Of a stretch of DNA of 64,000 bases, positions 6,064-57,490 are shown piece by piece. Origin of the DNA: a virus (taxonomy: Duplodnaviria > Caudoviricetes); the IMG/VR virus record IMGVR_UViG_3300006133_000325; one strand, given 5' to 3'. Each line of letters begins with the position of its first letter. The stretch's first letter is position 1. The notes beneath the pieces were generated by a model. It was not told the origin of the DNA, did not search any database, and saw only the letters and a list, made by a program, of their open reading frames with translations. The translations under genes and the position numbers were made by a program.

Positions 6064-6605
6064 AATGTCACTTCTCCATTTCTAATAGATTTTTGTATGT
6101 CAATTATCCTTTGGTTATGACTACCTTTAAATGCCAAATGAATATCACGATTTTCATCTTGATACAAACCATCTACCAAAATATCACACAATGATAAAAT
6201 CTGTTGTCGTTTCCATCTTCCAACAGAAAGCTTCTCTTGTGTTAGGGGATGATAATGCCATTTCGGATCAAAAATATGTTCCCAATTATATCCAGAATAA
6301 ATCCAAATCTTTTTTACTGGTGATAAAACACGTATTTCATAAACCAAATCTCTTATTCCCTTTAGGTTTTCTTCCGCAAGAGGTTCGCCACCTAATATGG
6401 AAATACGTTTTATATATGACCTATTAGCTAATTTTAAAAACTCTGCTTTTATTTCGTCTGTCCATTCTTTTCCTGAGTTAAAACTCCATGTTTCAGGATT
6501 AAAACAATTTTTGCAATGAAATGAACACCCTTGGACAAAAAGAGAGATTCCCACTCCCTCTCCATTACTTATATCCATACTTCTAATGCTTGCATATCTC
6601 ATCAA
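6054..6605 (-). CDS. nrdG: Anaerobic ribonucleotide reductase activating protein
   Basis: DISNGEGVGISLFVQGCSFHCKNCFN, LGGEP, FKGSHNQRII. Confidence 0.97.
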   Translation of the reverse strand: MMRYASIRSMDISNGEGVGISLFVQGCSFHCKNCFNPETWSFNSGKEWTDEIKAEFLKLANRSYIKRISILGGEPLAEENLKGIRDLVYEIRVLSPVKKIWIYSGYNWEHIFDPKWHYHPLTQEKLSVGRWKRQQILSLCDILVDGLYQDENRDIHLAFKGSHNQRIIDIQKSIRNGEVTLWE

Positions 6606-8863
6606 GAATCACATCCTTTATTCCTATGTTCAATATCGTCTAAATGAACAAACCGATCATGAATATCTCCTAACCTTCCTTGGTTCCACCCGTTAGTTGC
6701 TGTACCAAGGTAGCCGCAAGTACGTCTCACAACATTCATTTTATTTGTATCTCTATTATGACAATTCGGACATTCCCAAATAAGTCTATTATTTTTGTCA
6801 ATAAGCGTAATTTCCCCATCATAACCACATACTTGGCAATAATCACTTTTAGTATTAAGTTCTGCATACATAATATTATCATAGATGAATTTAATTACTT
6901 CCAATACTGCAGGTATATTATTTTGCATATTGGCTGTTTCAATATAAGAAATAGCGCCTCCTGGGCTTAATTTTTGAAATTTAGCCTCAATATGTAACTT
7001 TTCAAATGGATCAATCTTTTCAAATACTGGAATATGGTAAGAATTTGTCACATAATCACGATCTGTTATACCTTTTACTATTCCAAATCTTTCTCTTAAC
7101 TTTCTCGCAAACTTATAAGTAGTTGTTTCAAGTGGCGTTCCATATAGGCTATAATCAATATTCTCTTTCTCTTTCCATTGTCTACACTTGTCGTTTAAAG
7201 CTTGCATAACTTCTAATCCAAATTTTTCGCCAATTCCCTCATCACTATGACTATTGCCGGTCATATATTTTACACATTCATAAAGACCTGCATACCCTAA
7301 TGAAATAGTAGAATATCCATTATGTAATAATTTATCAATCGTTTCTCCTTTTTCTAATCTTGCTAATGCGCCATACCTCCACAAAATAGGAGCGACATCC
7401 GAATAGACACCTTCCAATCTCTCATGTCTCAAACGCAATGCTTTATGACATAGTTCTGTCCTTTCTTCAAACAGTTTCCAAAACTTATCCATATCACCTT
7501 CCGATGACAATGCAATATCTGGTAAATTTATTGTGACAACTCCTTGATTAAAACGACCATAATATTTATGTTTATCAGAAAGATAGTTTTTTGCATTTGC
7601 TACATTTCCGACTCCATTATCTGTAAATCTATCTGGTGTAAGAAAAGATCTGCAGCCCATACAAGTATATACATCTCCTTTTAGTTCAAACATTACTTTT
7701 TCGGAAATGTAATCAGGAACAAGTCTTTTTGCAGTACACTTTGCAGCAAGTTTTGTAAGATACCAATATGGACTACCCTCTACAATATTATCCTCTTCCA
7801 ATACATAAATCAGTTTAGGAAATGCTGGAGTAATCCAAACTCCTTGCTCGTTCTTAACTCCTTTATATCGCTGCTCTAACATTTCTTGTATTAACAGTGC
7901 TAAATCTTTTTTCTCTCTTTCGTCTTTAGCTTCATTTAAGTACATAAATACTGTAAGAAATGGAGCTTGTCCGTTTGTCGTCATAAGAGTAATAATTTGA
8001 TATTGTATAGTTTGTATCCCTTTTTTGATTTCGTTCTTAACACGCATTTCTGTGATTCTGTCTATTTCATGATTTATACAAGCTAAAGAATCATCTTTAT
8101 ATACATAAGAATTATTAACCCATTCGTTCTCAACTTCTTTTCTAATCTTTTGGCGACTTACTTCTACAAAAGGAGCTAAGTGCGCCAGGCTTACGCTCTG
8201 TCCTCCATATTGACTTGAAGCAACCTGAGCTATAATTTGGGTAGCAATATTACATGCCGTAGAAAAGCTGTGCGGCTTCTCAATTAAGGTTTCACTAATT
8301 ACAGTTCCATTTTGTAACATATCTTCTAAGTTGATAAGAGAACAATTGTGCATAAATTGTCCGAAATAATCTGCATCATGAAAATGCAATATCCCCTCGT
8401 CGTGCGCCTGGACAATCTCTGGAGGAAGTAAATATCTTCGTGTCATGTCAGTACTTACAATGCCTGCCATATAATCTCTTTGAGTCGTAGATAATCTTGG
8501 GTTTTTATTAGAATTTTCATTCTTCCAATAATCACTGTTACCTGTAAGAAGTTCTTCCATTTCTATATCTGTTGTATTAGAATTTTCTCTTTGAAACTCT
8601 CTGATACTTCTATAACCCTCATATGCTTTTGCTGTAAGTCTCTGCTTTTTACTAATCAGTTTATCATAAACCATAGTTTCTATATCGGAAATACTTATCT
8701 CTTCTTTTTCTTTGCATAATTCATAAATCTCATTTGCAATGTCTATAGCAATTTTTTCTTTTACAATCCCAGAACCATTTTTCATTGCTTTTAAAACAGC
8801 GCTAGAAATTTTATCTTTTTGAAAATCAACTAATGTGCAATCTCTTTTAATTACTTTTACCAT
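6602..8863 (-). CDS. nrdD: Anaerobic (class III) ribonucleoside-triphosphate reductase with ATP cone
   Basis: VIKRD ATP cone, HFHD, MGCRSFL, YVTNSYH, CQVCG...CPNC, RRTCGYLG glycyl-radical loop. Confidence 0.97.
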   Translation of the reverse strand: MVKVIKRDCTLVDFQKDKISSAVLKAMKNGSGIVKEKIAIDIANEIYELCKEKEEISISDIETMVYDKLISKKQRLTAKAYEGYRSIREFQRENSNTTDIEMEELLTGNSDYWKNENSNKNPRLSTTQRDYMAGIVSTDMTRRYLLPPEIVQAHDEGILHFHDADYFGQFMHNCSLINLEDMLQNGTVISETLIEKPHSFSTACNIATQIIAQVASSQYGGQSVSLAHLAPFVEVSRQKIRKEVENEWVNNSYVYKDDSLACINHEIDRITEMRVKNEIKKGIQTIQYQIITLMTTNGQAPFLTVFMYLNEAKDEREKKDLALLIQEMLEQRYKGVKNEQGVWITPAFPKLIYVLEEDNIVEGSPYWYLTKLAAKCTAKRLVPDYISEKVMFELKGDVYTCMGCRSFLTPDRFTDNGVGNVANAKNYLSDKHKYYGRFNQGVVTINLPDIALSSEGDMDKFWKLFEERTELCHKALRLRHERLEGVYSDVAPILWRYGALARLEKGETIDKLLHNGYSTISLGYAGLYECVKYMTGNSHSDEGIGEKFGLEVMQALNDKCRQWKEKENIDYSLYGTPLETTTYKFARKLRERFGIVKGITDRDYVTNSYHIPVFEKIDPFEKLHIEAKFQKLSPGGAISYIETANMQNNIPAVLEVIKFIYDNIMYAELNTKSDYCQVCGYDGEITLIDKNNRLIWECPNCHNRDTNKMNVVRRTCGYLGTATNGWNQGRLGDIHDRFVHLDDIEHRNKGCDS

Positions 8864-30359: not shown

Positions 30360-30650
30360 CTACAAATCAAAAAGTTGAATATTCGGTACTTCAATAGAAT
30401 TATTTTCTTTTTCCTCCTCTACAATTTCTATCCCGTATTTTTCTACCACTCCCTCTGGATATTCTCTCATCCAAAGTTTAGCGCTTAATGTATTACCACA
30501 ATTTTTACAAGCGCAACTTTCACAATCTTCCCATTTACTAAAAATTCCATTTTGACTTCTATACTGTTCCACCAAATCTAAGTTCCATTCAATTTCTGAC
30601 ACGTTCCCACAATTTCCACATATCCATTTTGACTTGTCTGTTAAAATCAC
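30360..30650 (-). CDS. Zinc-ribbon hypothetical protein
   Basis: CGNCG...CKNCG. Confidence 0.6.
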   Translation of the reverse strand: MILTDKSKWICGNCGNVSEIEWNLDLVEQYRSQNGIFSKWEDCESCACKNCGNTLSAKLWMREYPEGVVEKYGIEIVEEEKENNSIEVPNIQLFDL

Positions 30651-31783
30651 TTTTTATCACCATCCGATCTATTTATTTTACTATAGTTCATAAATTTCAT
30701 ATCAAAATATCTATATGCCAGTTCTGGGATCTCTTTTTCAATCTGTTTCAGGTATCTCATTTCCGAACACTCTTTTTGATGTCTTGATTGCTGATACTCC
30801 ACAAATTCTCTATAAGATTTTTTCTTAAAAGCACTGGGCTGATTACACCACGCAGCAAGATTTATATATGTACCCCTATAAGGAGATTCCTCATATCGGT
30901 TAAATCTCATAATATATGGTAAACACTGATATTTCATAAGCAGTTCGATTCGTTTCCATAAATCCCATATATCTTGCCTCCAAAATTTATCATCCCATTT
31001 ATCTTCTCTATCAAAACCGCAAAAAGTATAAAATTTTAAGACTTTATCTGTATACCTTCTCAATAGCTGCAGCTTATTTTCGATCAGTTCGTAATCAGCT
31101 ACATTGTCAAATGCAAATATATAATCACCATCATATTTACTGTTAAAAATCACGTTACATTTTTCGTCTGTAAGAAGCCGTTCATCCATGCCTTGCTTAT
31201 ATTGAAATGGTTTTCTTGTATTTTGCAATTCTCTAAATATTTCTTTCCAATAAGGACTTCCGAGAATATTATCATCCAATAAACATATCTTCTTTCTTGA
31301 AGGATCGAGAAACTTACTTAATGGACTATGATAATCAACTTTTTTATAATTACGATTCACGCAAAATTCACATTGTCTAAAGCAACCTCTCGTCGTGTAG
31401 CCAATCGAATAATCAAGATAATACTTAAAATCATTTCTCTTTTTGCCACTCTCAATTTGTCGATTTACCCATGTATCATATAAATGGTAATCTGGCATAT
31501 AGTGTTCTACTTCGTCAGGAAGCTTTGGAGCTTTGTCATAGAAGAATCCTGTTCCGCCATATTTTACATTAGGAAGTTTCAAAACTTCTTCATCTATTGG
31601 TGTATCAGTAAATACTTTAGAAATGAATACTTTGTCATATGTTTCCAAATCTTCATAATCCATTTTTAATTCAACATCAGTACCAAGTCCTTTGTAGTAA
31701 CCGGATAGTTTCATACAAACCAGATTGGGGAACCTGTGCTTGTCTCTGCCTATTAGATCTGCATCTATAATTGCTATTCTCAA
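30647..31783 (-). CDS. Radical SAM protein (phage family with FPNL..MKLS N-terminus)
   Basis: TTRGCFRQCEFC (CX3CX2C), LLDDN, QGMDER. Confidence 0.8.
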   Translation of the reverse strand: MRIAIIDADLIGRDKHRFPNLVCMKLSGYYKGLGTDVELKMDYEDLETYDKVFISKVFTDTPIDEEVLKLPNVKYGGTGFFYDKAPKLPDEVEHYMPDYHLYDTWVNRQIESGKKRNDFKYYLDYSIGYTTRGCFRQCEFCVNRNYKKVDYHSPLSKFLDPSRKKICLLDDNILGSPYWKEIFRELQNTRKPFQYKQGMDERLLTDEKCNVIFNSKYDGDYIFAFDNVADYELIENKLQLLRRYTDKVLKFYTFCGFDREDKWDDKFWRQDIWDLWKRIELLMKYQCLPYIMRFNRYEESPYRGTYINLAAWCNQPSAFKKKSYREFVEYQQSRHQKECSEMRYLKQIEKEIPELAYRYFDMKFMNYSKINRSDGDKK

Positions 31784-42870: not shown

Positions 42871-43767
42871 TCACTTCCTTAACCTAATTTTCTCAAACAT
42901 ATCATCAACTGATTCAAGTAAATCAAATCTCTCATCTAAAGGAGATGTTGAACTTTTAGAAAACTCCTTTTCTACCATATCAATAAAATAGGTAAATTCC
43001 GAATCCTCTCCCATATAAAACTCATCCCATTCTTCACTACTCATCAGCCGTCGGACTTCAAGCTGTTCTAAGGCTAAATTATCAAAGCTTACTACTTTGA
43101 AATGTTCGATGATGGCACCAATGTTTTCTTTCAGCCACATTTGTTTAGCAATAATATTTTCACACTCCGCCCTATACCATTCATTTCCACGTCTTAACTG
43201 TTTATATCCAAGGATAAGTATTTTTAAACCTTTATCAGACAATATCTTTACGTCAGATGGTTTAAATATACCGTTTATTACATGAATAACTGCATTTGGA
43301 TACTGTTTGACCAATGATATAAATTCATCTGTTGGATCTACAAGTGATACCCCAAGACCATATATCAATTTTTCTTCAGCTAATTTTTTAATCAGTTCCT
43401 GCTTCTGTTCAAAATGTTTTTGATTGACTGTAACATTTGCAATAACCCTTTTATCTTTTAGCTTATGTAAGAACGGAATCAGATCGGGATGGCTTGTTAC
43501 GTCACCCCCTCCAAGTGCAACCTCCTGATACGGATGTAAAGTTTCAATAAAATTTTGGTTTAGGATATCTCCATGTTTACCATTTTTTGTACTTCCCTCA
43601 TGACAAAAAGCACAAGACATGTCGCAATAATTGCTTATTTTAATATCATTATTCTCTGCAAAATCAGGAATGAATTCATCCTCTTGCGTTTCTCTAATTT
43701 TAGTTCCGTCTAAAATATTAAATTTAACTGTGTAATTCCCATTTTTATAAATCTTCCAACTGTTCAC
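42871..43767 (-). CDS. Radical SAM protein
   Basis: NYCDMSCAFCHE (CX3CX2C), EVALGGG, NVTVNQ, ILILGYK, VVSFDNLA. Confidence 0.85.
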   Translation of the reverse strand: MNSWKIYKNGNYTVKFNILDGTKIRETQEDEFIPDFAENNDIKISNYCDMSCAFCHEGSTKNGKHGDILNQNFIETLHPYQEVALGGGDVTSHPDLIPFLHKLKDKRVIANVTVNQKHFEQKQELIKKLAEEKLIYGLGVSLVDPTDEFISLVKQYPNAVIHVINGIFKPSDVKILSDKGLKILILGYKQLRRGNEWYRAECENIIAKQMWLKENIGAIIEHFKVVSFDNLALEQLEVRRLMSSEEWDEFYMGEDSEFTYFIDMVEKEFSKSSTSPLDERFDLLESVDDMFEKIRLRK

Positions 43768-50498: not shown

Positions 50499-51195
50499 TT
50501 ATATTCTGTTATCCTTCATTCTCTCCTTTGCTATATCAAACCATTTCTTTTCTTTTTCTATTCCAATAAAATTTCTTCCTAGCTTCAACGCTGCCACACC
50601 TGTTGTTCCTGTTCCCATTGTAAAATCTAAAATTGTATCACCTTCATTTGTCCAGATGGTTACACATCTTTCCATAAGTTGCAATGGTTTTTGCGTCGGA
50701 TGCCCCATTCCTTTCTGGACTCCATGGAACAATAGGCGAAATATCATACCAAACATTTGTAAGCGCTCTACATTCTTGTCCGTTCTTCCTTCCCATTCCT
50801 CCTGTTTTCTTTGGAATATTAGAATAGATTTTTTGATATGTAGGAGTTTTTCCTTTGCAATACCACAAGATATCTTCTCTTGTAGAAACAAAATTCTTTT
50901 TCGAGCCACGTCCTTTAATTCTGTCCCATACAATCCAATTTTGCATAATAAATTTCTCATCCAACAAACATTTTGTATCGGCTACATTAGACCAACCCTG
51001 GAACAAAACTAAGTTTCCATTATCCTTTAATAAATTATAACATAGCTGTATAGCTATTGGCATATTAAAACTATTATCCCATTCTGTGTAATTGATATTA
51101 TAGGGTGGATCACAAATAATTGCTTCTACTTTCACTCCTTTTGCTATTAGTGATTTCATCACTTCAAAGCAATCTCCATTAAATAATTCCTGTAT
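50499..51195 (-). pseudogene. DNA methyltransferase (beta class), +1 frameshift in a G4 run; apparent ATA start
   Basis: ELFNGDCFE...ICDPPY in one frame; HPTQKP, LDFTMGTGTT in the next; shift at 50703-50706. Confidence 0.85.
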
Positions 51196-53322: not shown

Positions 53323-53508
53323 TTAATCCTTTAGCAATCTTTTAGTAAGTTCCTCATTCAATTTCCTGCTCTCCGATATTTCCTTTTCAAGCTTTTTAAT
53401 CCGTTCCTCATACTGTTCTCTTTCTTTTTTATCCATGTGTACATATTCTGTTTTTGTTGAACAATTACAGTTACAAGCTCCACAATTACTCCCATCACAA
53501 CTAGGCAT
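53323..53508 (-). CDS. Cys-rich peptide with C-terminal coiled coil; candidate radical-SAM substrate
   Basis: MPSCDGSNCGACNCNCS...; overlaps the stop of the SPASM gene; GGAGG RBS. Confidence 0.7.
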   Translation of the reverse strand: MPSCDGSNCGACNCNCSTKTEYVHMDKKEREQYEERIKKLEKEISESRKLNEELTKRLLKD

Positions 53509-54508
53509 TTTTATTCCTCCATTTCTTCAACATATAAAGAATTACCGCTTTCAAAATATCGCAAGTATAATTCTTATTGATTTCCTTGTTATTCTCTTTG
53601 CAGCCGCCACCGCAAATATCGCTTATAGGACAACCCTTACATTTTTCTGGCAATGAATAGTTATATCCAAGCCGATATTTCTTCTGTTTCTTAAATTCCT
53701 CTACAATGCTTTTATCATCAAAAATATTGCAGATTTTTTCTCCATAAACTGTTGTTTGACAAGGGAAAATATCTCCGTTCACATATATTGCAATCAATTT
53801 CTCTCCTGCTGTGCAACCCTCGTAACTTGAATTTATGCTGATATTGGAAAATTTCATTTTGTTGTAAATGTCATATCCTTTATTGCAAAGAATATCTATA
53901 ACCGAAATCATCTTCTCGACAATCAAATCCAATGGCATTTCCCCGCAAAAGAAATGGTCTAAATAAATCCCCCAGTTCAAATCCCTGTCAGCTATCCATT
54001 CCGCCAATTTTTCAATATCCGAAAAGCTGTTCTTATCAATGACGGTAGAAATATCAATGTTTCTATTCTTGTTTCCAATCAGTCTCTCTATGTTTTCTTT
54101 CACGATTTCAGCAGATGATTTTCCGTTATGGAATGGTTTGGAATAAGAAAATCCGTCAAGTGAAACGCCAAAACTGTATCTCGTATCTTTGAAGTATTTC
54201 AGCATTTCGTCTGTCAGAATAGTTAAATTTGTAATAACGCTTACATGACCGTTTCCGTTCGCCTTATCAATAAATTCTTCTGCGTGTGAAATCCATTTAT
54301 CAAATACAGTTAGCGGCTCTCCACCTGCAAGCCTATAAATAACAGTTTTCTTTTCTCCGCTCTCAAGCATTTTCAAGAAAACATCATTTATCCTTTGATA
54401 TGTACCGCTTTTCATATCCTCATTTCCTTGTTTCACATAACAATAAGGACATTTCAGATTGCACCTTGTTGTAGTGAAAATCCAAGGGGAAATATAACTC
54501 ATTTCCAA
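53501..54508 (-). CDS. Radical SAM/SPASM-domain peptide/protein maturase
   Basis: RCNLKCPYC, GGEPL, TNLT, GVSLDG; SPASM GCTAG...GDIFPC...CKGCPISDICGGGC...C. Confidence 0.9.
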   Translation of the reverse strand: MEMSYISPWIFTTTRCNLKCPYCYVKQGNEDMKSGTYQRINDVFLKMLESGEKKTVIYRLAGGEPLTVFDKWISHAEEFIDKANGNGHVSVITNLTILTDEMLKYFKDTRYSFGVSLDGFSYSKPFHNGKSSAEIVKENIERLIGNKNRNIDISTVIDKNSFSDIEKLAEWIADRDLNWGIYLDHFFCGEMPLDLIVEKMISVIDILCNKGYDIYNKMKFSNISINSSYEGCTAGEKLIAIYVNGDIFPCQTTVYGEKICNIFDDKSIVEEFKKQKKYRLGYNYSLPEKCKGCPISDICGGGCKENNKEINKNYTCDILKAVILYMLKKWRNKNA

Positions 54509-54565
54509 ATTCCTCCAATCTCATATTATTTGCGGACTTCCCATGAAAGAAAGTCCGCTGTGTGG

Positions 54566-55438: not shown

Positions 55439-57490
55439 TTAAAACTTCACTTTGACAACCCTCTCGCTTGCTCCCCTGACCTTTACAACTAGGTCATTCC
55501 GCTTTGTTGCCGAAAATCCAACGCCGGATAATTGGTCTGCCACATCTTCAACGTGCATTTTGCTTCCAAGTGCTTCAAACACACGCTTATGCTCCGTCAG
55601 TTCGTTTTTCAGAAATTCGTTATAAAAGCCATTGGGCATTTCCTCATTGATACAGCCTTTCAACATGAATAAGTAATGCCTATGCCCGATTCCGTCCTGC
55701 TCATCCCAATAATTCGGGGAATACATGATAACCGATACCGGAACAAACTGATTTGTCTTTACGCCCCACACTTCCCTTACGGACATATTAGACGGCAACA
55801 GTTCCTTGATTGAGAAATTCTGTCCGTCAAAAGTTACTTCTGCAACTGGCACATTCTCATTCTGCCGCAACTCTTTCTGATAATCGAAACGGTAAATGTT
55901 TCCGTCACACTCAATCTCCGCCCGAAAACCGTTCTTGCCGCCACGGTTAGCGAACTGATGAACAAAGAATAGATACTTGCCTTTCTGCATGGTGTTCTTG
56001 CTCGCCCATGTGATATTTTCAACAGCAGGAGTATTCTTGTTGGGGTTAGTTATGTCAATATCAAGTTCTCCCTTTGTCCAGCTTCTCTTATGGCTATACA
56101 TAATTTCCTCGCCGCTCGGTTCTTTACAATGTGCGTCAAGGTCGTTTCTATCCCAATCGCCCATATCGTTCCACTGGATCGAGAAACGCAAAACTCCGTC
56201 TACTGCGCCGCCTGCTGACTTCACATTTTCCCGAATATCGCTGTCTGTGATGTTTCCGGCATACGCCCAAGAAAAGCCATTATTCCATTTGAACATTGTA
56301 GGCGCATCCGCATTTTTCGGTGCAATCAGCGACACCATGTTTGATGAATGTCTGTTTTCAAGGAATACTTCAATTTCTTTTGCTGTAGGCAGCACATTTT
56401 TCACAAAATCTTCTGCCGATACTTCCTCAGCCTTAGAAAACTTCTTCGGGTTGACTGCAATATCCTTTTCCATACTTGCAAACACATCATCTGCGCCCGA
56501 TATGCGCCGCTGCGCATCCTTATTTGAGAAAAGAATGTTGTTGATAGAAATATCATCAAGCGCGGCGAATCTGCGCTCTAAGGACGGCATATATCCTAAT
56601 TCCTCAATCTTTTTCTTTGCCTCCTCCAACATCTTCTTTGTAAAGATTGCCTTTGGACGCTTGTAATTTGCCGGAGCGACAATCTGCTCATATTTCTTAA
56701 CTGCCGTGTCTAACTCCATTCCCTCGCTGATATTAACAAGCAGTGTTCCGATACTGTGATTCCTTATCCTGCCAATAGCGGCTCCTGCGGCAATAGATTT
56801 CTCCCATGCGAAGCTTTCCTTTTCCTCTGCCGCTGTCAGTTTGTCGTAGGCTTTCTTGTACCTCAAAAACTCTGTTAAAACGGCTTTCCATTCCTCACCC
56901 TTGTAAAGAGAGTTCTGTGAAATCAACTCCAATACAGTCATAATACTTTCTTCTGAAATTTCATCCAGTGACCGTTTGAACACATTCCTTGTGTCTCTAA
57001 ATGTCCCTTTAATGTCGCCTGCGGAACGCCGCTTGCCAAAAACAAACTTGTCCGGCAATTCCAGATAAAAATGCTCGTAGGTGTTAATCTTTCCGTTTTC
57101 AAGCTGCTCATGGTTCTTGTCTGTACCGATTTTCTTCTCTTGGCTGACATACACATCCGTAACCGCATGGGATTCTATGTAGTTTGCCATAGCGTTTGCA
57201 ACAGTCTGAAATGCCGGGTCATCTATTGCCATATCCCATATAGAGTAGACTGTGTTGTTTTTGATAACTACCGCATTTCCGATAGCCTTAATGAAGTGCC
57301 TGCAACAGCTACAATCGTATTCCCTGCGTTCTCTATAAATCTCGTTCGTTCCTGCCGGAAAGCTGTCCAGATACAGATTCCACAGCTCGTCCTTGTCTAC
57401 CGCAACCTCAAACAAATGTGTTGCGTCCTTTGTTATCTCTGCAAAACGCTTTTGCAGTGCTTTCTTAAATTCATTAAATTCCATTGACAA
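55439..57490 (-). CDS. Large conserved hypothetical phage protein with YfaP/DUF2135-like C-terminal region
   Basis: [11 protein letters not shown]; RFSIQWN...DLDAHC...LDID...VENITW. Confidence 0.75.

What the first reader, a model, noticed from the sequence alone, without database searches (positions are those of the whole stretch)
53323..54508. Phage-borne two-gene RiPP-like cassette: SPASM maturase plus Cys-rich peptide with a C-terminal follower
Seen: an intact radical SAM/SPASM gene overlapping a 61-aa ORF with five Cys in residues 4-16 (CDGSNCGACNCNC) followed by a charged coiled coil. The enzyme starts directly at the SAM domain, leaving no room for an N-terminal RRE. No protease or exporter is nearby. 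Known: SPASM enzymes make Cys-to-carbon thioethers in sacti- and ranthipeptides, often onto Asp, Asn or Thr, usually with an N-terminal leader. Inference: an inverted architecture (core first, follower last) producing an intracellular cross-linked miniprotein, possibly a host or defence inhibitor.
Basis: partly seen in the sequence, partly recalled or inferred. Interest (0 to 1): 0.75.

Follow-up and report, generated by a model that had tools for sequence, protein, structure and literature searches.

The report
Phage enzyme modifies cysteine-tipped coiled-coil protein
A phage of gut Clostridia carries an iron-sulfur "radical SAM" enzyme locked to a small helical protein that always begins with the same cysteine-rich 12 residues. 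The pair recurs in dozens of phage genomes, probably makes a chemically cross-linked protein tip, and appears in no paper I could find.

Summary
A complete radical SAM/SPASM gene (53501-54502, minus strand; true start ATG, 333 aa) overlaps by 8 nt a 61-aa gene (53323-53508). That gene's product starts MPSCDGSNCGACNCNC and continues as a charged four-heptad zipper.

- **Linkage:** of 21 related enzyme loci I could evaluate, 19 have a protein starting MPSC(D) or MPSDC just downstream; one of these is an in-frame fusion. Searching the other way, all 12 real ORFs carrying the head motif have the enzyme immediately upstream.
- **Enzyme:** it has no RRE. It keeps the seven SPASM cysteines of CteB/PapB, which leave auxiliary cluster I with three Cys ligands. 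It lacks the extra ligand seen in anSME. Its best curated match is the PapB core, far below that family's cut-off.
- **Best reading (about 0.5):** the enzyme recognises the invariant N-terminal head directly and installs Cys thioether cross-links of the ranthionine type (Cys to Asp/Asn).
not supported. The tails fall into at least four unrelated classes, so the head is the only shared element.

The chemistry and the biological role are untested. This scan had already noted the same pair on other DNA (e1-3747389, e1-5747165, e1-5747175). I class it as a new variant of a known kind.

The parts
53501..54502 (-). Radical SAM/SPASM enzyme, 333 aa counted from ATG 54502 (the ORF list gives TTG 54508, 335 aa). 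It has no RRE. CX3CX2C is at C16/C20/C23, and the seven SPASM Cys are C232, C250, C290, C293, C299, C303 and C316 (335-aa numbering).
   Evidence: Pfam Radical_SAM 1.8e-19. TIGR04085 SPASM scores 47.6 bits against a cut-off of 27. These Cys are invariant in 30 homologues. AF2 model has pLDDT 91.9. Foldseek top hits are ChlB, CteB, anSME and SuiB at TM about 0.73.
54512..54516 (-). Shine-Dalgarno GGAGG of the enzyme gene, 9 nt before ATG 54502
   Evidence: Read directly. The spacing to TTG 54508 would be only 3 nt.
53323..53508 (-). 61-aa head-plus-zipper protein, the presumed substrate
53461..53508 (-). Codons 1-16: the Cys-rich head MPSCDGSNCGACNCNC. The first 12 residues are invariant in the main clade.
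   Evidence: Synonymous codon differences between loci leave the peptide unchanged.
53326..53460 (-). Codons 17-61: charged tail with a leucine-zipper-like heptad pattern of about four heptads (Asn51 at an 'a' position)
   Evidence: Tails are related only within the close clade.
53516..53520 (-). Shine-Dalgarno GGAGG of the head-protein gene, lying inside the 3' end of the enzyme gene
   Evidence: A strong SD sits 6-10 nt upstream of the MPS start in all 18 loci inspected.

Best explanation
The two genes are an enzyme-substrate pair. The RRE-less radical SAM/SPASM enzyme binds the invariant N-terminal head of the small protein directly, as anSME binds its short motif, rather than through a leader or follower. 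A head cysteine thiol, with Cys4 as the minimal conserved one, ligates the open iron of auxiliary cluster I. The 5'-deoxyadenosyl radical abstracts a hydrogen from a nearby acceptor: Asp5 or Asn8, and further along Asn13 and Asn15. A C-S thioether of the ranthionine type then forms, possibly several times along the Cys/Asn run. The product is not cleaved or exported. It stays in the infected cell as a short, probably parallel dimeric coiled coil carrying a rigid cross-linked cap. Shown here: the obligate gene linkage, the enzyme class, the cluster-ligand pattern, and the head as the only shared element. Inferred: substrate status, thioether chemistry, which residues are linked, dimerisation, and any role in host takeover.
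For: Linkage, anchored on the enzyme: 19 of 21 evaluable loci with enzyme identity of 30-94% have a protein beginning MPSC(D) or MPSDC within two genes downstream. Linkage, anchored on the head: a DNA pattern for the head finds 5 viral contigs, all carrying the enzyme. It also finds 7 real ORFs in genomes, all with the enzyme immediately upstream.

Head class follows enzyme clade on a tree. One lineage fuses the head in frame to the enzyme's N-terminus.

All closest curated and solved relatives modify peptides or proteins. The best is the PapB ranthipeptide core at 96 bits, followed by nif11 rSAM, anSME, QhpD and SCIFF. Among structures they are CteB, anSME, ChlB and SuiB.

The seven SPASM Cys align one for one with CteB C344/C362/C413 (cluster I, three ligands) and C400/C403/C409/C432 (cluster II). 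The equivalent of anSME Cys261 is absent (PMC10177961, PMC6231123). In PapB and Tte1186 the substrate Cys binds that cluster (PMC10177961).

PapB accepts Cys-Xn-Asp with n = 0-6 and needs the acceptor C-terminal to the Cys (PMC9413430, PMC12373016). NxxcB links Cys to Asn (PMC9389541).

A sister lineage keeps only one Cys (MPSCDWTEYED...), which fits a single Cys-to-acid cross-link but not a metal site. Two divergent members instead sit beside a protein with a C-terminal DC/NC-rich tail, so the substrate flavour is the same.
Against: No chemistry was observed and nothing here shows a mass change. The head could bind zinc or an iron-sulfur cluster. The enzyme scores far below every curated family cut-off (96 against 340 bits for PapB). 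Seven-Cys SPASM domains also occur in enzymes that do not form thioethers. The natural fusion could equally mean that the head is a subunit or domain of the enzyme. AF2 left the fused head disordered (pLDDT below 50), so there is no docking evidence. The spacing between Cys and acceptor is not conserved in the MPSDC clade.
Confidence: 0.5

Rival explanations
1. Same enzyme-substrate pair but different chemistry on the head. Candidates are oxidation of Cys4 to formylglycine as in anSME, another Cys-derived modification, a carbon-carbon or carbon-oxygen cross-link, or epimerisation.
For: anSME is among the best sequence and structure matches. Like this enzyme it lacks an RRE and acts directly on a short motif in a full-length protein. 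SPASM enzymes catalyse many reactions, and sequence similarity predicts function poorly in this family (PMC6231123).
Against: The fourth cluster-I ligand of anSME is missing family-wide. The C/S-x-P/A-x-R sulfatase motif is absent from the head. The best HMM is the thioether-forming PapB core. The substrates are rich in Cys next to Asp or Asn.
Confidence: 0.2
2. The head protein is not a substrate. It is a metal- or iron-sulfur-binding accessory subunit of the enzyme (electron donor, cluster carrier or targeting subunit), and the enzyme acts on something else.
For: The first three Cys are invariant in the main clade. One lineage fuses the head to the enzyme. There is no protease or exporter nearby.
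Against: The Cys count in the head varies from 1 to 7, and one lineage has a single Cys. The tails are unrelated and variable. Two family members pair with a surface protein carrying a C-terminal Cys/Asp tail, which looks like a substrate rather than a subunit. Every nearest relative is a peptide or protein maturase.
Confidence: 0.15
3. A classical secreted RiPP or bacteriocin: the head is the core peptide, and the tail is a follower removed by a host protease before export.
For: General RiPP logic. Follower peptides are known (established knowledge: bottromycin).
Against: No protease, transporter or immunity gene lies within about 4 kb here. Tails reach 173 aa, are coiled coils, and are unrelated between clades. 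The head starts at residue 1 in every locus. The gene sits among the phage's nucleic-acid-metabolism and small unknown genes, not near lysis or export genes.
Confidence: 0.07
4. The enzyme is a viperin-like or other small-molecule radical SAM enzyme, and its adjacency to the small ORF has no functional meaning.
For: pVip models hit residues 11-165 at 6e-16.
Against: That hit covers only the generic radical SAM core. The enzyme has a full seven-Cys SPASM domain, which viperins lack. The two-way linkage of 19/21 and 12/12 excludes chance adjacency.
Confidence: 0.03

Closest known systems
PapB/PapA (freyrasin ranthipeptide, Paenibacillus polymyxa)
   Same: A radical SAM/SPASM enzyme with a seven-Cys pattern and an open site on cluster I. 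It forms Cys-S to Asp/Glu C-beta thioethers, tolerates Cys-Xn-Asp with n = 0-6, and needs the acceptor C-terminal to the Cys. It is the best curated HMM for the phage enzyme core (PMC9413430, PMC10177961).
   Different: PapB has an N-terminal RRE and needs a leader (PMC12373016), and its core is C-terminal. The phage enzyme scores 96 bits against a cut-off of 340. The phage substrate carries its motif at residue 1 of a coiled-coil protein.
CteB/CteA and other SCIFF maturases of Clostridia
   Same: The closest solved structure by profile (5wgg/5why) and close to the top by fold. All seven auxiliary-cluster Cys align. The hosts are from the same phylum.
   Different: CteB has an RRE and acts on an N-terminal leader with a C-terminal core in a roughly 45-aa peptide. 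The phage enzyme scores 59.6 bits on TIGR03974 against a cut-off of 425.
Anaerobic sulfatase-maturating enzyme (anSME/AtsB)
   Same: It has no RRE, is of similar length (about 370 aa), and recognises a short motif directly within a full-length protein that then remains a functional protein. The full-length alignment covers 12-323.
   Different: Both of its auxiliary clusters are fully ligated, with eight Cys. It oxidises Cys or Ser to formylglycine, and its substrate motif is C/S-x-P/A-x-R.
CrpC/CrpA of Methanococcus voltae (PMC13692751)
   Same: A SPASM enzyme that installs ranthionine cross-links on a Cys-rich protein rather than a short peptide, encoded next to it.
   Different: CrpC has a predicted RRE. 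CrpA has a 47-residue leader-like N-terminus and C-terminal repeats. The system is archaeal and cellular, not phage-borne. The TIGR04463 model does not appear among the best 25 hits for the phage enzyme.
QhpD/QhpC (quinohemoprotein amine dehydrogenase maturation)
   Same: Forms Cys-to-Asp/Glu thioethers in a polypeptide that stays as part of a working protein (established knowledge). TIGR03906 hits at 71 bits.
   Different: The score is far below the cut-off of 453. The enzyme has an N-terminal extension, and its substrate is a periplasmic enzyme subunit.
NxxcB/NxxcA (streptococcal RaS-RiPP)
   Same: Forms a beta-thioether from Cys to Asn (PMC9389541). The phage head is rich in Asn-Cys and Cys-Asn pairs.
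   Different: Its precursor depends on a leader and is linked to quorum sensing. No specific sequence relationship to the phage enzyme was shown here.

Membership tests
Radical SAM superfamily (PF04055) | CX3CX2C cluster motif, GGE SAM-binding motif, partial TIM barrel | tested here: met
   PF04055 scores 71 bits against a cut-off of 29.5. C16/C20/C23 and G62-G63-E64 are invariant. The model has pLDDT 91.9.
SPASM subfamily (TIGR04085 / PF13186) | Seven-Cys motif CX9-15GX4C...CX2CX5CX3C...C binding two auxiliary clusters | tested here: met
   TIGR04085 scores 47.6 bits against a cut-off of 27. C232, C250, C290, C293, C299, C303 and C316 are invariant and align with the CteB ligands. Pfam SPASM itself scores 19.8 against 21.5, just below its cut-off.
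PapB family ranthipeptide maturase (NF047865) | Score at or above the curated cut-off | tested here: not met
   96.4 bits against a cut-off of 340, although the match covers model positions 8-326 of 330.
PapB / CteB type RiPP maturases | N-terminal RiPP recognition element (RRE) that docks a leader peptide | tested here: not met
   The cluster motif starts at residue 14-16. The best roughly 25 family clusters are 300-340 aa and match from residue 1-10. The next relatives, at about 440 aa, carry a 90-100 aa N-terminal extension that this family lacks.
Thioether-forming SPASM enzymes (sacti/ranthi synthases) | Formation of a Cys S-C bond (-2 Da, loss of a free thiol) | not testable with these tools
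   Needs mass spectrometry of the co-expressed pair.
Thioether-forming SPASM enzymes (sacti/ranthi synthases) | Auxiliary cluster I with only three protein Cys ligands (an open site for the substrate thiolate) | tested here: met
   By alignment only: the equivalents of CteB C344/C362/C413 are present, and the fourth ligand of anSME (C261) is absent (PMC6231123, PMC10177961).
Anaerobic sulfatase maturase (TIGR03942) | Curated score; eight-Cys fully ligated clusters; substrate motif C/S-x-P/A-x-R | tested here: not met
   78 bits against a cut-off of 349. There are seven Cys, not eight. The head has no such motif.
SCIFF system (TIGR03974 maturase plus six-Cys-in-45 peptide) | Curated score; precursor of about 45 aa with a C-terminal Cys cluster | tested here: not met
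   59.6 bits against a cut-off of 425. The Cys cluster here is N-terminal.
RiPP in the strict sense | Leader or follower removed by proteolysis to release a small mature peptide | tested here: inconclusive
   No protease or exporter lies within about 4 kb, and the tails are long and unrelated. Processing by a host protease cannot be excluded.

The most novel reading that the evidence does not exclude
The 12-16-residue MPSC head is a portable tag that works only at the very N-terminus of a protein. It is sufficient on its own, without leader, follower or RRE, for a dedicated phage radical SAM enzyme to build a thioether-cross-linked cap. Phages attach this cap to unrelated coiled-coil or basic tails to make intracellular effectors. 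This would be the first protein-level ranthionine system of viruses and a leaderless way of recognising a substrate.
Probability: 0.35. Interest if true: 0.75.

Novelty: new variant of a known kind. Interest (0 to 1): 0.6.

Why it matters
Radical SAM/SPASM cross-linking is known almost entirely from leader-dependent bacterial peptides that are cleaved and exported. Here a family with no RRE is carried by phages and prophages of anaerobes. It is strictly tied to a 12-residue motif at residue 1 of proteins that are otherwise unrelated.

If the head is modified as proposed, three things follow:
- Viruses would be shown to use RiPP-type chemistry on their own intracellular proteins.
- The head would be a minimal, leaderless recognition tag, useful for enzymatic peptide stapling.
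- A previously uncharacterised class of phage proteins from the non-structural gene region would gain a testable handle.

The system is small (two genes, 1.2 kb) and can be tested directly by co-expression and mass spectrometry.

Tried and rejected
- **DNA search:** blastn of the cassette against 50,697 phage records found no match. tblastn found only distant radical SAM genes at 22-33% identity in gut phage contigs.
- **Fold of the natural fusion:** AF2 on P0096 was meant to show the head docking into the enzyme. The head came out disordered (pLDDT 38-42), so the result is uninformative.
- **Family scans of head proteins:** Pfam, PHROGs and NCBIfam gave only coiled-coil noise or nothing. The ESM Atlas gave scores of 0.81 or less, which is chance level.
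- **PADLOC:** only a generic viperin-core hit for the enzyme.
- **An apparent 'MPSC' start in L018:** this proved to be an internal Met of a 371-aa protein, so it was dropped from the counts.
- **Own genome:** no whole genome is held for this window.
- **Literature:** searches for phage-borne SPASM or RiPP systems found nothing describing this pair.
- **Bias caveat:** the invariance of the head is partly built in, because that search picks candidates by shared words. The enzyme-anchored loci are the unbiased sample.

Full report
**What is there.** The window is part of a large temperate phage of an anaerobe. It encodes an integrase, DNA polymerase, primase-helicase, anaerobic ribonucleotide reductase, an RNA ligase/kinase fusion and a Thg1-like enzyme, nearly all on the minus strand.

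At 53501-54508(-) lies an ORF with a Radical_SAM domain (1.8e-19) and a SPASM domain (TIGR04085, 47.6 bits against a cut-off of 27). The ORF list starts it at TTG 54508. However, GGAGG sits 9 nt before ATG 54502, and homologues are 333 aa and begin MSYISPW, so the real product is probably 333 aa. The cluster motif begins at residue 14-16, which leaves no room for an RRE.

The enzyme's stop overlaps by 8 nt the start of a 61-aa ORF (53323-53508), which has its own GGAGG 7 nt upstream. That ORF's product begins MPSCDGSNCGACNCNC, with Cys at positions 4, 9, 12, 14 and 16. It continues as a 56%-charged tail whose hydrophobic residues follow a heptad pattern over about four heptads, with Asn51 at an 'a' position; 80 of 5000 shuffles score as well. 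No protease or transporter family is detected within about 4 kb on either side.

**Is the pairing real?** I tested it in both directions.

- **Starting from the enzyme.** Protein and profile searches gave loci from viral contigs, Clostridia MAGs, metagenomes and public assemblies at 30-94% identity. Of 21 distinct loci with readable flanks, 19 encode a protein starting MPSC(D) or MPSDC. It is usually the next gene. In two rabbit-gut MAGs it is the second gene downstream. In one assembly it is fused in frame to the enzyme's N-terminus with no stop or ordinary start codon between them.
- **The two exceptions.** L155 and L157 are divergent members in a bacterial setting. There the gene upstream encodes an Ig-like/SH3 surface protein ending in a DC/NC-rich tail of about 17 Cys.
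- **Starting from the head.** A degenerate DNA pattern for MPSCDGxNCxxC found five viral contigs, all of which also carry the enzyme. It found eight places in 185,579 species genomes. Seven are real ORFs of 90-114 aa with the enzyme ending 20-30 nt upstream. The eighth is a 15-codon chance match.
- **Start codon and selection.** In all 18 loci inspected, a strong Shine-Dalgarno sequence sits 6-10 nt before the Met of MPS, so the motif truly is the N-terminus. Pro and Ser codons differ synonymously between loci, so selection acts on the peptide rather than the DNA.
- **Tree.** On an enzyme tree the RRE-less family is monophyletic against three RRE-bearing relatives (100/99). Head classes follow clades: MPSCDG (95/92), MPSCDW (100/99), and MPSDC plus the MPSCH fusion (89/83). 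The two bacterial "C-terminal tail" loci nest inside the MPSCDG clade, but on a very long branch, so that placement is uncertain.

**What the partner proteins share.** Only the head is shared. The first 12 residues are invariant in the main clade. After that the number of Cys varies: 3-7 in the main clade, 2-4 in the MPSDC clade, and just 1 or 2 in the MPSCDW proteins.

The tails are almost free of Cys. They fall into at least four groups with no detectable similarity to one another, plus several singletons:
- a zipper of about 45 aa, as in this window;
- a coiled coil of 90-160 aa;
- the MPSCDW type;
- the MPSDC type;
- singletons, including a basic tail, a coil followed by a small globular part, and the enzyme itself in the fusion.

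None of them matches Pfam or PHROGs. This argues against the tail acting as a recognition "follower". It points to the head as both the recognition site and the reaction site.

**What the enzyme is.**
- **Curated families.** The best match is the core of the PapB ranthipeptide maturase (96 bits, model positions 8-326 of 330, cut-off 340). Next come the nif11-type maturase, anSME, QhpD, DynA and SCIFF maturases, all far below their cut-offs.
- **Structure.** The model is confident (pLDDT 91.9). Its nearest solved folds are ChlB, CteB, anSME, SuiB, TigE and SkfB, at TM about 0.73 for the best of them. All act on peptides or proteins.
- **Auxiliary clusters.** Profile alignment puts C232/C250/C303 on the three cluster-I ligands of CteB, and C290/C293/C299/C316 on its four cluster-II ligands. 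The fourth cluster-I ligand of anSME (Cys261) has no counterpart in any family member. The ligand assignments come from PMC10177961 and PMC6231123. In PapB and Tte1186 the substrate cysteine binds that open site (PMC10177961).
- **Family size and shape.** A profile search of 1.84 billion representatives finds 596 proteins at E < 1e-30. The top roughly 25 clusters are 300-340 aa and match from residue 1-10. The next tier is about 440 aa with a 90-100 residue N-terminal extension, and its best curated hit is again the PapB core. The phage family is therefore a truncated, RRE-less offshoot of ordinary RRE-bearing maturases.

**Most likely mechanism.** The enzyme recognises the free N-terminal head directly. 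A head thiol, minimally Cys4, binds auxiliary cluster I. A hydrogen is abstracted from a neighbouring residue, and a thioether forms.

The chemistry of known relatives fits the head. PapB links Cys to Asp or Glu at spacings of 0-6 with the acceptor on the C-terminal side (PMC9413430, PMC12373016), and NxxcB links Cys to Asn (PMC9389541). In the head, Cys4 is followed by Asp5 and, three residues further on, Asn8. In the single-Cys lineage the matching position is Glu8. Cys12 and Cys14 are each followed by Asn.

I put about 0.75 on the enzyme-substrate relationship and about 0.5 on the whole statement including thioether chemistry. The steps from "binds cluster I" onward are inference.

The product has no signal sequence and no processing or export genes nearby, so it probably works inside the infected cell. 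What it does there is unknown. Its neighbours are small unknown genes, a DUF551 protein and a ProQ-like protein, which gives no functional lead.

**Rivals.**
- **Different chemistry on the same substrate (0.2).** anSME is a close, RRE-less relative that acts on proteins, which favours this. The missing eighth Cys and the absent sulfatase motif count against formylglycine formation specifically.
- **Head as a metal-binding subunit (0.15).** The invariant first three Cys and the natural fusion favour it. The single-Cys lineage, the variable Cys count and the C-terminal-tail relatives count against it.
- **Secreted RiPP with a cleaved follower (0.07).** There are no export or protease genes, and the tails are long and unrelated.
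- **Chance adjacency or a viperin-like small-molecule enzyme (0.03).** The linkage counts exclude it.

**Comparison with what is known, and novelty.** The pair works like PapB/PapA, CteB/CteA, QhpD/QhpC and the recently described CrpC/CrpA protein cross-linker (PMC13692751). It fails the membership tests for each of these on curated score, RRE and precursor architecture. It shares with anSME the direct, leaderless recognition of a short motif in a whole protein.

Three features appear to be new together: carriage by phage, the lack of an RRE, and a reaction site fixed at residue 1 of variable proteins. Full-text searches found no paper describing this, though the library does not cover subscription-only papers.

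Earlier notes of this scan had already flagged the same "MPSC" pair on other DNA (e1-3747389 with a follow-up; e1-5747165 and e1-5747175). They had also flagged related phage systems in which radical SAM enzymes accompany Cys-ladder fibres. My linkage counts were made independently and agree with those notes. I class this as a new variant of a known kind, with interest 0.6.

Noticed in passing
L018:5137-6252, L019:5134-6240, L028:268-3936, L033:2466-3935, L038:5049-5942: Other phage contigs carry distant radical SAM/SPASM genes (21-29% identity to this one) lying directly beside large proteins with long Cys repeats. Examples are CQxxCQ-type runs, (CECPEECG)n repeats, and a 489-aa protein with 111 Cys. 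Some sit in structural-gene modules. This suggests a wider habit among phages of pairing such enzymes with Cys-repeat proteins.
   Followed up: partly
L157:1849-2919 (also L155:1-300): Two human-gut metagenome loci have a member of this same enzyme family (33-35% identity). It sits next to an Ig-like/SH3 surface protein ending in a DC/NC-rich tail with about 17 Cys, downstream of a MacB/FtsX-like permease. This is the opposite architecture (C-terminal tail, bacterial context). On the tree these enzymes nest inside the phage clade, on a long branch.
   Followed up: partly
L142:4001-5050: A natural in-frame fusion of a Cys-rich head (MPSCHACNPYECGGPCG) and a charged linker to the N-terminus of the enzyme. 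No stop or ordinary start codon lies between the two parts. Only one contig carries it, so an assembly error cannot be excluded.
   Followed up: partly
window 50499-51162 (-): An N6/N4 DNA methylase is split over two overlapping frames (Pfam positions 1-147 in one ORF, 118-221 in the other). It is either a frameshifted pseudogene or a programmed frameshift.
   Followed up: no
window 30647-31783 (-) and 42871-43767 (-): The same phage carries two more radical SAM genes (phrog_9298 and phrog_16999), making three in 64 kb, plus an anaerobic ribonucleotide reductase at 6602-8863.
   Followed up: no
window 54529-54558 (-): An 11-bp hairpin (-18.7 kcal/mol for the 76-nt stretch, z = -1.96) lies in the 63-nt spacer between the DUF551 gene and the enzyme gene, just upstream of the enzyme's ribosome-binding site. 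No U-run follows it, so it is not a typical terminator.
   Followed up: partly
window 55439-57490 (-): A 683-aa protein matches phrog_1735 end to end (E = 1.9e-280) but has no Pfam or PADLOC hit. It is a large, conserved phage protein of unknown function three genes upstream of the cassette.
   Followed up: no
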